From contig CAJFSR010000014.1 of NCBI GenBank assembly GCA_904419735.1, forward strand, positions 5,955 through 69,954: 64,000 nucleotides of DNA, read 5' to 3'. The position numbers and the translations under genes were made by a program. The DNA comes from Candidatus Neochristensenella gallicola. GTDB taxonomy: Bacteria > Bacillota > Clostridia > Christensenellales > QALW01. Of the stretch, positions 24,086 through 55,171 are shown piece by piece; the stretch's first letter is position 1; every line of letters starts with the position of its first letter. The notes below the pieces were generated by a model, which saw nothing but the letters and a program-made list of their open reading frames with translations, made no database searches and was not told the origin of the DNA.

Positions 24086-25746
24086 TTAAACTATAGGTTT
24101 ATACTGGCTTTGCTCCGCAGGCTTAAGCCGTTTGAACGTATGAGCATATATTCCTAAAGAAATGGGCAGCATAATTATTTCCACGGCGAGCTGTGTCCAT
24201 ATCATGCCGTAGAGGCCAAAAAGCCGGTTCATCAGTATAAGCAGGGGGATGTTCAGCAAACCCTGGCGGCTGAAGGTAAGAAGGGCTGACTGCGCTCCCT
24301 TTCCCATGGCCTGGAGGGTATAGCTTATAAGAAAATTTACCGAAGTCAGGGGCACGGCCAGACAGGCAATGCGCAGGAAAGAGGCGCCCAAGGTGCTGGT
24401 CTGCTCTTCCCGTATGAACAGACGCAGTATTTGGGGCGCTCCCAGAGCAAAGCAGGCTACAAAGCAAGCTGACATAACAAGGGCGGTTTTCCAGGAGAAT
24501 ACGGCGACGTGGCGCATGCGCTTATAGTTTTTGGAGGCAAAAGTATACCCTAAATTGACAAGGGGATATACGCCTCCAGCGGCCTGATTCCGGCATTTTC
24601 TGCGTCGTCGTCAATAGGTGTACGTTCAGTACACCTCATTCCGCTTCCTTGAAAATGCCGAAATTAAACCTGCTGGAGGTCGAAGAGTCAGACAGCGGCC
24701 GTTTGGGTGCCCTGCAAGGCGCTTGAACGACGTGTACTGGACGTACACGGAGCGAAAAGCAACAGCGAAAAGCAACACAGCAGGACACCGAAACAGCCCT
24801 GTCCTGACCGTATATGCCCTTGTCAATTTAGGGTAGCCTACCAAAGGCATAAAACCCTGGCACAGCCCATGGATACGTTGAGCGGGAACTGATCTATGCG
24901 CTTGACTATGCCGTATGCCGCTACGGGTATATCCCCGTAATTCGAGGCCAGACTCACCATTACCATATTTGAAGCGTTGCCCAGAGCGGTAGCCAGGGCG
25001 GAAGCCAGCCCTACTGAAAAAACCGGCCGGGTGAAGGAGAAGGAAAAATATTTAGGATTCAGCGAAAGCTGGGTTCTGCCATGCAGCCGTTTGAACTGGA
25101 AGGCAAAAAAAGCGACAGAGGCCGCATTGGAAAAGGCGGTGGCTATTGCCGCGCCCGCAACGTCCATATCAAATAAGAATATGAGCACCGGATCCAGTAT
25201 TACATTCAGAATGCCCCCGAACATCATGCCTGCACTGGCCTGTTTGGCGTGTCCTTCGCTGCGCAGCAGATGGCCTAAGGTCAAGCTGGCTACAGTGGGT
25301 ATTCCGCCCAGAACAACCACCCATATAAGATAGCTTTCCGCATAACTGTAAGTATCGCTGCTTGCTCCTAAAAAATTCAAAAGGGGGTTCCGCGCAAAAA
25401 GGGTAACCAGAGAAAAAACCAGAGCCGCCGCTGCGCCGCCCCAGATGCCGAAAGCTGAGACATGCTTTATTTCCTGGTGCTTCATTGCTCCCAGCATTCG
25501 GGAGATAAGGCTGCTTGCGCCTAAACCGAACAGGTTCCCAATAGCGGTAAGCAGGTTGAACCAAGGGGAAACCAAGGAAACTGCGGCCACCATTAAAGGG
25601 TTCCCAATCTGGCCTATGAAAAAAGTGTCCGCCAGATTGTATATCATGGTAACAACCTAGCTTATAATGGTGGGAATGGCCAGAGTAGCTACGGCCCTTG
25701 GTACGCTCATGCTCTCAAACAGCTCTTTTTCGTTTTGTTTGTCCAT
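24086..25746 (-). pseudogene. MATE family efflux transporter inactivated by three lesions
   Basis: Lesion 1 is an in-frame TAG at 25657-25659 within PTIIS*VVTMIYNLADTFFIGQ, a position that my recollection of MATE N-termini would fill with Gln (unverified). Lesion 2 is a 1-nt frameshift near 24865-24875 (NVSMG then LCQGFMPLVGY in another frame). Lesion 3 is a MITE insertion at 24548-24833. Confidence 0.85.
24548..24833 (-). mobile_element. MITE family B, copy B1 (286 bp), inside the MATE gene
   Basis: TA|CCCTAAATTGACAAGGGGATATACG ... CGTATATGCCCTTGTCAATTTAGGG|TA, a 25-nt TIR matching 24/25. Carries an internal 13-bp tandem duplication GCGAAAAGCAACA x2. Strand is given relative to family A reference copy 34172-34438. 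Confidence 0.9.
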
Positions 25747-25935: not shown

Positions 25936-26207
25936 CCCTCAGTTTACAAGGAATTACATGCCTCGTAACGGGATAATATCTTCATTTTCTGCGTTATCCT
26001 CAATCGTAGTACGTCCAGTGCGCCTTTATCGCTTGCCTGGAAAACAAAGAAATTCTCGCCGTTTGAGGCCGCAGAGTCAGAATGCATAAAATTTATGCCG
26101 GGTAAAGCGCGCTTGAACGACATGTACCGAGTGTACATGGAATCAAGACAGCGCGCCGGTACGCAATTTTATGCATTCTAACCGTGCAGCTCTCTGTAAA
26201 CTGAGGT
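25936..26207 (-). mobile_element. MITE family A, copy A4 (inverted orientation)
   Basis: CCCTCAGTTTACAAGGAA ... CTCTCTGTAAACTGAGGT|TA. The left flank is TG instead of TA. The right end abuts the stop codon of the 26207-27568 gene. Confidence 0.85.
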
Positions 26208-27568
26208 TAATTGCCGGTGAAAATATTTGACAGCCAGCTGTCAAAAGTAGGGATCCAGCCGCCTCTAGAGCCGAAGCCGTGAGGCATGTTATCCAGCTGA
26301 AGGCGTTCAACATTTACGCCCGCTTCTTCGGCAGCATCGGCATTGGCCAGGAATTGGCGGTAAAACGGGTCTCTGGTGCCGTAGCAGTAGAAAGTGGGAG
26401 GCAGATTGCCCCTCCGGAGCAGTTCCACATCGGTTGTGCCTACGCTCAGGCGCCCGTAAAAGGAATATATCATTCCGCATGCCGCAGCGTCGGCCGACAG
26501 CATGTCCAGCTGGTCAGGTATGTAATCAGAATCCAGCGCCGTGCCGTTAACTTCCCCGTCAAAATTTAAGAGCATTTCGCCGCTGAGGATTCCGCCTGCG
26601 GAAAAACCCATTACTGCTATGTCCTTTTCCTCTATGCCGTATTCCTCAGCGTGAGCGCGGACAAAGCGCACCGCCCTGGCCAGGTCGAGGGCCCCTTCCT
26701 GCTGGGTATAGGGCCGCAGACGGTAATCCACGACAAAGCTCTGGTATCCAAGGGCGCTCAGAGCCTGGGCGACCTCTATCCCTTCGGGCTGGTCGCTGCG
26801 GAACTGGAATGCCCCGCCGGGACAGATAAGCACGGCCCCTTTGATTTCTACGCCCTGCGGTACCGGAAAGCTGGTAATATAAGGCCGGAAATCCGGGTCG
26901 TCCGAATAAGCGCCATTATTCTGCGTATATTGGGTTACTGCGGGAGCGTTGTTTTCTTCCCAGAGATAAAGAGTTTGCTGCGAATGGGGCGTTACTGCTG
27001 CGCTTAATACAGTGTTGCCGCCGCTTTCTTCGGGCATGCTGTCCTCTTTAAGCAGATTAAGGCTCTGCGCCCAGGCGACAATGGCTTGGTCCTGTGTTTC
27101 TTCTAAAATTATGAGGGCGCCGCCCAGCAGCGCGCCGGGCTGAAGCTGTGAGACTGCGTTTAAAATGCCGTCCGCATTATTGCCGCTGCCGGCGGCAAAA
27201 GGAAATATTGTCTTTGCTCCAAAATCATTTTGAGTTAAAAACTCCGCTATCTCTTCGGGCAGAATATTATTTTCTGCTTCAAAGCCCAGCAGGATAAATT
27301 CATACATGCCATAATCCTTTTGGGGATTTTCAGAAATAGGCAGTACTTGGGCGTTTAATGTTTCTCCCAGCAAAGAGGCGGCCCGGCTTATGGGGCTGTT
27401 CTCCTGGGAAGAAACATATGCAACGAGGATATTGCTCTGCTGGGGGGATGTGAAAATATTTCCCTGGCTGGGTGCGGCACTTTGCTGGGCTGGGCTTTGG
27501 GGGCTGCTGCAAGCGGCCATACAAAAAATCATACTGGATATAACTATCATTACCGCTGTTCTTTTCAT
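26207..27568 (-). CDS. lipoprotein with an N-terminal flavodoxin-like region and a C-terminal alpha/beta-hydrolase (esterase/lipase) domain
   Basis: Lipobox FCMAAC and nucleophile elbow GFSAGG within VMGFSAGGILSG. Also HAEEYGIEEKDIAVMG, typical of hydrolase fold-3 esterases. Confidence 0.7.
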   Translation of the reverse strand: MKRTAVMIVISSMIFCMAACSSPQSPAQQSAAPSQGNIFTSPQQSNILVAYVSSQENSPISRAASLLGETLNAQVLPISENPQKDYGMYEFILLGFEAENNILPEEIAEFLTQNDFGAKTIFPFAAGSGNNADGILNAVSQLQPGALLGGALIILEETQDQAIVAWAQSLNLLKEDSMPEESGGNTVLSAAVTPHSQQTLYLWEENNAPAVTQYTQNNGAYSDDPDFRPYITSFPVPQGVEIKGAVLICPGGAFQFRSDQPEGIEVAQALSALGYQSFVVDYRLRPYTQQEGALDLARAVRFVRAHAEEYGIEEKDIAVMGFSAGGILSGEMLLNFDGEVNGTALDSDYIPDQLDMLSADAAACGMIYSFYGRLSVGTTDVELLRRGNLPPTFYCYGTRDPFYRQFLANADAAEEAGVNVERLQLDNMPHGFGSRGGWIPTFDSWLSNIFTGN

Positions 27569-54898: not shown

Positions 54899-55171
54899 GC
54901 CTAAATTGACAAGGGGATACACGCCTCCAACGGCCTGATTCCGGCATTTTCTGCGTCGTCGTCAATGGGCGTGCGTTCAGTACGCCTCATTCCGCTTCCT
55001 TAAAAATGCCGGAATCAAACCTGCTGGAGGTCAAAGAGTCAGACAGCGGCCGTTTGGGTGCCCTGCAAGGCGCTTGGACAACGTGTGCTGGACGTACGCG
55101 GAGCGAAAAGCAGCACGGCAGGACACTCAAACAGCCCTGTCCTGACCGTATATGCCCTTGTTAATTCAGGG
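54899..55171 (-). mobile_element. MITE family B, copy B2 (273 bp)
   Basis: Collinear with B1 but lacks its 13-bp duplication. The left end is decayed (GCCTAAATTGACAAGGGGATACACG). The right end is TATATGCCCTTGTTAATTCAGGG|TA. Confidence 0.8.

What the first reader, a model, noticed from the sequence alone, without database searches (positions are those of the whole stretch)
24548..24833. Second MITE family (B): TA duplication proven by frame-restoring excision, related to family A
B1 has 25-nt TIRs, CCCTAAATTGACAAGGG(G/C)ATATACG, and is flanked by TA (24546-47 and 24834-35). Removing 24548-24835 joins ...CCT TTG GTA GGC | TAT ACT TTT GCC TCC AAA AAC TAT AAG on the minus strand. This gives PLVGYTFASKNYKR, an uninterrupted frame that reads like a MATE sequence. 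The interior is collinear with family A in the opposite orientation. For example, B has GCGCTTGAACGACGTGTACTGGACGTACACGGAGCGAAAAG and A4 has GCGCTTGAACGACATGTACCGAGTGTACATGGAATCAAG. The termini differ, with CCCTAAATTGACAAGG in B and CCCTCAGTTTACAAGG in A. The families are therefore two lineages of one superfamily, possibly served by two related transposases.
Basis: seen in the sequence. Interest (0 to 1): 0.6.

Follow-up and report, generated by a model that had tools for sequence, protein, structure and literature searches.

The report
TA-duplicating MITE splitting a MATE pseudogene
A 286-bp non-coding "jumping" DNA element has inserted into a drug-efflux (MATE) gene of an uncultured gut Clostridia bacterium, duplicating a TA; it belongs to an undescribed but ordinary kind of bacterial mini-transposon, and the enzyme that moves it was not found.

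Summary
Window 24548-24833 is a 286-nt element with 25-nt terminal inverted repeats (one mismatch) and TA on both sides.

Removing the element plus one TA joins the flanks into ...PLVGY|TFASKNYKRM.... This aligns without a gap to ten intact MATE orthologues. The best one is syntenic, 83% identical in protein, and reads GGA TAT AGT where the window reads GGC TA[B1]TA T ACT.

Excision does not restore the whole gene. It also carries an amber codon (Gln in all orthologues) and a 1-nt deletion 31-33 nt upstream of the insertion, so it is a pseudogene with three lesions.

The genome holds about 60 complete B copies (consensus 273 nt) and about 27 complete A copies (271 nt), and 66 of 87 have TA on both sides. 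A and B are discrete sister lineages, about 65-71% identical and collinear. Each has relatives in other gut Clostridia genera.

All lineages share a TIR core, a length of 270-274 nt and a covarying Y-shaped fold.

No IS630-type transposase was found in the own genome or in 14 other genomes with the element or its TIR. No autonomous copy turned up anywhere searched.

Verdict: a real, apparently undescribed family of a well-known kind (a TA-duplicating MITE). Interest is modest.

The parts
24548..24833 (.). MITE copy B1 (family B), 286 nt. It is 96.7% identical to the 273-nt family consensus apart from a private 13-nt duplication.
24546..24547 (.). TA, left copy of the target-site duplication
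24834..24835 (.). TA, right copy of the target-site duplication
24548..24572 (+). Left terminal inverted repeat CCCTAAATTGACAAGGGGATATACG
24809..24833 (-). Right terminal inverted repeat (reverse complement CCCTAAATTGACAAGGGCATATACG)
24573..24680 (.). Internal arm 1: a long imperfect palindrome (outer stem about 26 bp, including ATTCCGGCATTTTC/GAAAATGCCGAAAT) tipped by the hairpin AGGTGTAC-GTTCA-GTACACCT at 24616-24636. Coordinates are approximate.
24687..24808 (.). Internal arm 2: a second long imperfect palindrome tipped by the hairpin CGTGTAC-TGGAC-GTACACG at 24731-24749. Coordinates are approximate.
24751..24776 (+). 13-nt tandem duplication AGCGAAAAGCAAC x2. It is private to B1 and explains 286 versus 273 nt.
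24086..25746 (-). MATE-family efflux transporter pseudogene, interrupted by B1 in the Tyr codon of the conserved PLVGY(N/S/T)(F/Y)A motif
25657..25659 (-). In-frame TAG at codon 30 of the MATE gene. All 10 aligned orthologues have Gln here.
24866..24868 (-). Site of a 1-nt deletion. The window has a GGG run on the minus strand where the orthologue has GGGG, which shifts the frame between ...NVSMG and LCQGF....
25936..26206 (-).
54899..55171 (.). Second family-B copy in the window (273 nt, 93.8% identical to consB)

Best explanation
B1 is one copy of a non-autonomous, non-coding DNA transposon (a MITE). It inserted at a TA inside the Tyr codon of the conserved PLVGY motif of a MATE efflux gene and duplicated that TA.

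Shown:
- The element has TIRs and a 2-bp TA duplication, and an empty orthologous site exists.
- The genome holds about 60 dispersed B copies and about 27 A copies.
- A B insertion is present in the sister species but absent at the matching site here.
- A and B are sister lineages of a superfamily spread over several gut Clostridia genera. The superfamily shares the TIR core CCCTNANTTNACAAGG...ACACG, a length of 270-274 nt and a covarying Y-shaped fold.

Inferred: the elements are moved in trans by a DDE-type transposase that binds the 25-bp TIRs and makes 2-bp staggered cuts at TA, as IS630/Tc1-mariner enzymes do. That enzyme is not encoded in this assembly or in the other host genomes examined, so its family is unknown. 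I put IS630-like chemistry at about 0.5; the stated confidence of 0.85 refers to the MITE and TA-duplication reading as a whole.

The MATE gene is dead for three independent reasons, and the order of the lesions is unknown.
For: - TIR and TA flanks.
- Local frame restored only when exactly one TA is kept.
- Gap-free alignment of the reconstructed protein to 10 intact orthologues through NVSMGLCQGFMPLVGY(N/S/T)(F/Y)A.
- Syntenic orthologue (BD-FAE, MATE, AKR, AKR) with GGA TAT AGT at the site.
- Copy numbers: 87 complete elements, 66 with TA on both sides against an expectation of about 0.5%; AT-rich target surroundings.
- A B copy in the sister species (UMGS1037) has an empty site with a single TA at own-genome contig C6.
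- Only 4 of 87 insertions lie in a restorable long ORF, as expected if gene hits are selected against.
- A and B form discrete clades, each with relatives in other genera (Blautia, Merdisoma, Merdimonas and Lachnoclostridium An138 with B; Dorea and a Lachnospiraceae MAG with A).
- TA duplication is the hallmark of IS630/Tc1-mariner transposition (ISY100 in vitro, PMC2170065) and of the MITEs RUP, Correia and ERIC (PMC2229807).
Against: - No partner enzyme was found. PF13358 (DDE_3) gave no hit in the own genome, hits in only 5 of 301 genomes of the order, and none in 13 other genomes with the element or its TIR. NF033545 (IS630) gave nothing over its cut-off in 10 hosts.
- No TIR-bounded element carrying a transposase turned up in about 60 fetched TIR loci, in viral contigs or in a metagenome scan.
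- Copies are about 5% diverged from their consensus, so the family may no longer be active.
- The empty site comes from another species (73% nt identity), not from an empty allele of the same species.
- These are MAGs, and multicopy IS elements are often lost from bins.
Confidence: 0.85

Rival explanations
1. The mobilising enzyme is not an IS630/Tc1-mariner transposase. It belongs to a different or undescribed family that recognises the conserved Y-shaped fold (two roughly 26-bp arms tipped by GYGTAC-N5-6-GTACRC hairpins) as well as, or instead of, the TIR sequence.
For: - IS630-type genes are absent from 15 genomes with the element or its TIR.
- The fold covaries: 94.1% of cells are paired against 84.7% in shuffles and 34-42% when slid; 39 of 96 pairs show compensatory double changes; 0 of 500 shuffles reach the observed score.
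- Length is held at 270-274 nt in all lineages.
- A third lineage has the same TIR and the same length but an unrelated GC-rich interior, and it also folds as a Y.
Against: - Micro-elements of 41-43 nt made of two TIRs only, and 159-nt deletion derivatives, also occur with TA flanks. This suggests the TIRs may suffice.
- Covariation between the arms of a DNA palindrome can arise from template switching or repair without any selection.
- G-U and A-C departures both occur, so no single folded strand is indicated.
- MAGs may simply lack the IS.
Confidence: 0.15
2. Families A and B are each served by their own, related transposase, rather than by one enzyme.
For: - The A and B TIRs differ consistently at positions 5, 7 and 10.
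- All 87 complete elements carry two ends of the same type; none pairs an A end with a B end.
- The two lineages are old and each has relatives in other genera.
Against: - Matched ends are expected simply because each copy descends from a master copy.
- The three variable positions occur in many combinations across genomes, which suggests they are tolerated.
- A and B co-occur in both species of the genus with similar divergence.
- No transposase has been found at all.
Confidence: 0.25
3. The repeats are host-functional structured RNA or regulatory modules rather than selfish transposons. B1 would then be such a module that happens to lie in a dead gene.
For: The fold is very stable (-142 to -148 kcal/mol against about -82 for shuffles) and covaries.
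Against: - The element has a TA duplication and an empty site, and it sits inside coding sequence.
- Half of the copies lie in each orientation.
- There is no Rfam match above noise and no promoter or terminator consensus in or around B1.
- Departures from pairing show no strand asymmetry.
Confidence: 0.05
4. The flanking TAs are not a duplication. They would be a 2-bp crossover core of a site-specific recombinase (serine or DEDD type), or part of the element itself.
For: Recombinases that exchange strands at a dinucleotide core also leave that dinucleotide at both junctions.
Against: - Near-perfect 25-bp terminal inverted repeats are typical of DDE transposons. IS607 and IS110 elements lack them.
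- Target surroundings share nothing beyond TA and AT-richness, so there is no att-like site.
- If both TAs belonged to the element, excision would break the frame and create an indel relative to the orthologues.
Confidence: 0.05

Closest known systems
RUP (repeat unit of pneumococcus), the MITE attributed to IS630-Spn1 in Streptococcus pneumoniae
   Same: A non-coding element of a Firmicute with TIRs that inserts at TA. It occurs in about 100 dispersed copies and sometimes inactivates genes (PMC2229807).
   Different: RUP is 107 bp with about 9-bp contiguous TIRs, and a cognate IS630 element with matching ends sits in the same genome. Here the element is 273 bp with 25-bp TIRs and two long internal palindromic arms, and no IS630-type gene occurs in any host examined. 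Sequence similarity was not tested.
Correia elements / NEMIS (CREE) of Neisseria
   Same: TIRs of about 24-26 bp, a TA duplication, about 100 or more copies, size variants produced by internal deletion, long stem-loop folds, and a cognate transposase that was never identified (PMC2229807).
   Different: Correia elements are 107-155 bp, are confined to Neisseria and carry an IHF site. The present family is 270-274 bp, occurs in gut Clostridia and folds as a Y with two GTAC-tipped arms.
IS630/Tc1-mariner insertion sequences (e.g. ISY100 of Synechocystis)
   Same: Insertion at TA with a 2-bp TA duplication, and TIR-bound cut-and-paste transposition that needs only the transposase (PMC2170065).
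   Different: Those elements are autonomous, about 1 kb long and encode a transposase. No such gene and no long TIR-bounded element was found for this family.
Stowaway MITEs of plants (Tc1/mariner-mobilised)
   Same: Elements of about 250 bp with a TA duplication and TIRs, present as subfamilies that may be cross-mobilised (my own knowledge).
   Different: They are eukaryotic, and no sequence relationship is expected or was tested.

Membership tests
Bacterial MITE (non-autonomous TIR transposon) | Terminal inverted repeats | tested here: met
   25-nt TIR with one mismatch; conserved in about 60 B copies.
Bacterial MITE (non-autonomous TIR transposon) | Target-site duplication, shown by comparing filled and empty sites | tested here: met
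   The syntenic orthologue has one TA (GGA TAT AGT) where the window has TA[B1]TA. A second case: a B copy of the sister species against an empty site in this genome.
Bacterial MITE (non-autonomous TIR transposon) | Small, without a transposase gene | tested here: met
   The element is 286 nt. The only ORFs are spurious ones of up to 74 codons.
Bacterial MITE (non-autonomous TIR transposon) | Many dispersed copies in both orientations | tested here: met
   87 complete elements on many contigs, about half reversed.
Bacterial MITE (non-autonomous TIR transposon) | Ends shared with an autonomous IS that supplies the transposase | tested here: not met
   No long TIR-bounded element with a transposase was found in the own genome, in 5 other hosts, in viral contigs or in a metagenome scan. 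Many accepted bacterial MITEs, such as Correia, also lack a known partner.
IS630/Tc1-mariner-derived MITE (RUP type) | TA target with a 2-bp duplication | tested here: met
IS630/Tc1-mariner-derived MITE (RUP type) | IS630-family (DDE_3) transposase present in the host | tested here: not met
   PF13358: no hit in the own genome, hits in 5 of 301 genomes of the order, none in 13 other genomes with the element or its TIR. NF033545: only weak HTH-level hits, none over its cut-off. Caveat: most of these genomes are MAGs.
IS630/Tc1-mariner-derived MITE (RUP type) | TIR similarity to a known IS630-family IS | not testable with these tools
   ISfinder is not available here. The IS630 loci fetched from 5 genomes of the order carry no TIR-like motif.
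Correia/NEMIS | Size classes of 107 and 155 bp, Neisseria host, IHF site | tested here: not met
   The element is 273-286 nt in Clostridia. The IHF site was not tested.
Any Rfam RNA family | Covariance-model match | tested here: not met
   Only a noise-level hit: mir-5014 at 21 bits against a gathering score of 101.
MATE (MatE, PF01554) transporter, for the interrupted gene | Full-length homology to MatE proteins | tested here: met
   The read-through protein is 77-83% identical over at least 96% of its length to 120 PF01554 proteins, E down to 9e-237. It is broken by a TAG codon, a -1 frameshift and the MITE.

The most novel reading that the evidence does not exclude
The A, B and third-lineage elements form a superfamily of gut-Clostridia mobile elements. 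In this reading, their conserved 270-274-nt Y-shaped architecture (a TIR stem plus two covarying arms tipped by GTAC hairpins) is required for mobilisation by a transposase that is not of the IS630 family and has not yet been recognised. It would be a structure-reading, TA-duplicating system with no partner gene in any host examined.
Probability: 0.15. Interest if true: 0.6.

Novelty: new member of a known kind. Interest (0 to 1): 0.3.

Why it matters
For this locus, the result gives a clean annotation. The two MATE fragments are one pseudogene, killed by a mobile element plus two point lesions.

More widely, A and B elements make up about 1% of this 2.6-Mb genome, break assemblies at contig ends, and recur in several gut Clostridia genera from human, chicken and mouse. 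Recognising them improves MAG annotation and gives markers of recent insertion polymorphism.

The open question is which enzyme moves TA-duplicating, fold-conserved MITEs in genomes without IS630-type genes. Solving it would add a transposase-MITE pair for Clostridia and would explain why the Y-shaped fold is conserved.

Tried and rejected
- DNA search for the empty site in 40 relatives: no usable match. A protein search plus contig look-up solved this instead.
- Rfam scan of the element: noise only.
- PLSDB plasmids, distant mode: no match.
- Hunt for the transposase:
  - PF13358 in the own genome, in 301 genomes of the order and in 13 other genomes with the element or its TIR; NF033545 in 10 hosts. 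All negative. The weak hits were IS3- and IS481-type HTH regions, not IS630.
  - Self-BLAST of the genome found only a phage-lysin repeat, a relaxase repeat and one other repeat with no transposase ORF; no IS carried these TIRs.
  - ORFs on small contigs: none IS630-like.
- A degenerate TIR scan of genome contigs was swamped by chance hits in unrelated phyla, but it did reveal true relatives in Lachnospiraceae and other gut Clostridia.
- TIR pairs 0.9-2.6 kb apart in other hosts turned out to be chance pairs around ordinary genes. One enclosed an IS256 fragment and one a complete MATE gene. None had a matching transposase.
- Viral contigs gave only chance single hits.
- A metagenome scan designed to skip canonical MITEs returned solo TIRs fixed at orthologous loci.

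Full report
**Observation.** The + strand at 24546-24572 and 24809-24835 forms a 27-nt inverted repeat, 96% complementary. This is a TA dinucleotide followed by a 25-nt terminal inverted repeat, CCCTAAATTGACAAGGG(G/C)ATATACG, on each side of a 286-nt element at 24548-24833.

**The excision test.** Two minus-strand ORFs flank the element. One is a 269-codon MatE-like fragment (24838-25647) and the other a 143-codon fragment (24086-24517).
- Deleting 24548-24835 (288 nt, the element plus one TA) gives a 225-codon open frame...IHGLCQGFMPLVGYTFASKNYKRMRHV..., that runs to the natural stop.
- 286 and 290 are not multiples of three, so only the model with one TA retained keeps the frame.
- I built a read-through protein and searched the large protein collection. 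It found 120 listed PF01554 proteins of 446-490 aa at 77-83% identity.
- In an alignment with ten of them, the block NVSMGLCQGFMPLVGY(N/S/T)(F/Y)A(A/S)(K/R) is continuous, with no gap at the insertion point.
- The best hit (P0001, 83%) lies on 53-kb and 231-kb contigs in the same gene order as the window: BD-FAE hydrolase, MATE, then two aldo-keto reductases. It is therefore a positional orthologue.
- Its DNA reads CCC CTG GTA GGA TAT AGT TTT GCG, where the window reads CCT TTG GTA GGC TA[B1]TA T ACT TTT GCC. One TA is present before insertion and two after, which confirms the 2-bp target-site duplication.

**The gene is nevertheless not restored.** The N-terminal fragment is in a different frame from the open frame produced by excision.
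- Compared with the orthologue (ATG GGG CTA TGT CAG GGC), the window (ATG GGC TGT GCC AGG G) has lost one base from a G run at + strand 24866-24868.
- Codon 30 is TAG (25659-25657), where all ten orthologues have Gln.
- The MATE gene is thus a pseudogene with three lesions, and their order cannot be inferred.

**Family size and target.** The whole assembly (2.58 Mb, 154 contigs) was laid in the Python box.
- BLAST with B1 finds more than 45 full-length copies at 80-91% identity (B1's private duplication lowers these figures), plus shorter derivatives.
- Classifying TIR cores gives 146 B-type and 93 A-type ends. They pair into 87 complete elements of 400 nt or less: 60 B-B and 27 A-A, with no element pairing an A end with a B end.
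- B includes nine deletion derivatives of about 159 nt (nt 1-87 joined to 217-273).
- 66 of 87 elements have TA on both sides. TA makes up 6.8% of dinucleotides, and flanks are about 70% A+T in a 47% G+C genome.
- Only 4 of 87 elements lie where removal restores a long ORF, and B1 is one of these. Most insertions are intergenic, as expected if gene hits are selected against.
- B1 is 96.7% identical to the 273-nt consensus. Its extra 13 nt are a private tandem duplication, AGCGAAAAGCAAC x2, at 24751-24776.

**Relationship to family A.** The consensus sequences (A 271 nt, B 273 nt) align at 71% over 230 nt, E 5e-25.
- B copies are a median 94.7% identical to consB and at most 68.9% to consA. A copies are a median 92.3% identical to consA. 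There are no intermediates.
- A FastTree of all copies plus elements from other genomes gives two clades, with support 0.93 and 0.99.
- Elements from Ca. Blautia excrementipullorum, Ca. Merdisoma, Merdimonas and Lachnoclostridium sp. An138 fall with B. Elements from a mouse Dorea MAG and a Lachnospiraceae MAG fall with A.
- The A/B split therefore predates their presence in this genome, and both lineages have crossed genus boundaries.
- Within the window's own GTDB family, the element occurs only in this genome and in one of the two other species of its genus, UMGS1037.
- A B copy in UMGS1037 corresponds to an empty site with a single TA on own-genome contig C6, 85% identical across 581 nt spanning the junction. 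This shows insertion polymorphism between the two species.

**Architecture.** RNAalifold on 13 diverse A- and B-type elements predicts a Y shape. The TIRs form the base. Two arms of about 26 bp follow, each tipped by a GYGTAC-N5-6-GTACRC hairpin.
- 39 of 96 pairs show compensatory double changes.
- On the same alignment, 94.1% of cells are paired, against 84.7% in column shuffles (0 of 500 reach the observed value) and 34-42% when partners are slid by 1-3 columns.
- Both G-U and A-C departures occur, so neither strand is favoured.
- A third lineage, in an Oscillospiraceae MAG and in UMGS946, has the same TIR and the same 270-273-nt length but an unrelated GC-rich interior. It also folds as a Y.
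- This conservation is the most unusual feature of the family. However, TA-flanked micro-elements of 41-43 nt made of two TIRs only, and the 159-nt derivatives, show that smaller forms also exist.
- Arm-to-arm correction in DNA palindromes could mimic selection on the fold.
- There is no Rfam match and no promoter or terminator consensus in or around B1.

**The transposase.** TA duplication is the signature of IS630/Tc1-mariner transposition (PMC2170065) and of RUP, Correia and ERIC (PMC2229807).
- PF13358 (DDE_3) has no hit in the own genome. It hits 5 of 301 genomes of the order, none with a matching TIR, and none of 13 other genomes that carry the element or its TIR.
- NF033545 gave only weak helix-turn-helix hits. 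These belong to IS3- and IS481-type genes.
- No repeat in the genome encodes a candidate.
- About 60 TIR loci fetched from five hosts, including the isolate An138, contain only 270-nt elements, short derivatives, solo TIRs or chance pairs.
- One 1.5-kb TA-flanked, TIR-bounded segment in Ca. Merdisoma carries a whole MATE gene but no transposase.
- Viral contigs gave chance hits. The metagenome scan gave solo TIRs fixed at orthologous loci.
- The enzyme therefore remains unknown. TIR positions 5, 7 and 10 vary in many combinations across genomes, which fits one tolerant enzyme at least as well.

**Comparison and verdict.** In behaviour this is a classical bacterial MITE, closest to RUP and Correia, and it meets every defining MITE feature except a known partner IS. 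It fails the one testable membership criterion for an IS630-derived MITE, namely a cognate transposase in the host, so I do not file it there. IS630-like chemistry remains the most economical mechanism.

A full-text search for MITEs in Lachnospiraceae found no paper on such elements, so the family appears undescribed. Earlier notes of this scan on sister copies reached the same reading. I treated those notes as leads and re-derived each point here.

The finding is real and well documented, but it is ordinary in kind: a new member of a known kind, with modest interest. A minority chance remains that the fold-conserved architecture and the missing transposase hide something new.

Noticed in passing
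window 25657-25659 and 24866-24868: Besides the MITE, the MATE gene carries an amber codon at codon 30 (Gln in all 10 orthologues) and a 1-nt deletion in a G run 31-33 nt upstream of the insertion. That makes three independent lesions. Read-level confirmation was not possible.
   Followed up: yes
window 25936-26209: A diverged A-family copy abuts the stop codon of the upstream BD-FAE hydrolase gene. The TAA stop consists of the flanking TA plus the first base of the element. The orthologue's protein is 4 residues longer with a different tail. The hydrolase-MATE spacer is 461 nt here against 106 nt in the orthologue.
   Followed up: partly
window 24751-24776: A private 13-nt tandem duplication (AGCGAAAAGCAAC x2) in arm 2 of B1, found in no other copy.
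   Followed up: yes
own genome, e.g. C18:22479-22637, C2:42596-42754, C74:22640-22798: Nine B derivatives of about 159 nt share the same internal deletion (consensus nt 88-216 removed) and are TA-flanked. This suggests the shortened form itself multiplied.
   Followed up: partly
L131 982-2481 (Ca. Merdisoma merdipullorum contig): A 1.5-kb segment flanked by TA and bounded by two inward-facing TIRs of different subtypes carries a complete 451-aa MATE gene and no transposase. It could be a cargo-carrying composite or two solo TIRs that flank the gene by coincidence.
   Followed up: partly
L140 254-295, L143 3875-3917, L212 49-89, L215 55-96 and others: TA-flanked micro-elements of 41-43 nt made of two TIRs only occur in several Lachnospiraceae genomes. 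Solo TIRs are fixed at orthologous loci across metagenome samples (L224-L245).
   Followed up: partly
L145 2042-2314 (Oscillospiraceae MAG) and L052 7469-7738 (UMGS946): A third lineage has the same TIR core plus ACACG and the same 270-273-nt length, but an unrelated GC-rich interior. It is also predicted to fold as a Y.
   Followed up: partly
own genome C18:11131-12300: An intact-looking IS3-family (rve) transposase ORF of 390 codons. It is one of only two transposase-like genes noticed in the assembly (the other is an rve-type fragment on C139) and is unrelated to the TA-flanked elements.
   Followed up: no
own genome contig ends (e.g. C7:1-153, C27:1-135, C33:1-136, C68:1-218, C17:1-218, C145:1-185): Many contigs of this MAG and of UMGS1037 end inside a B or A element, so the family is a major cause of assembly breaks.
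   Followed up: no
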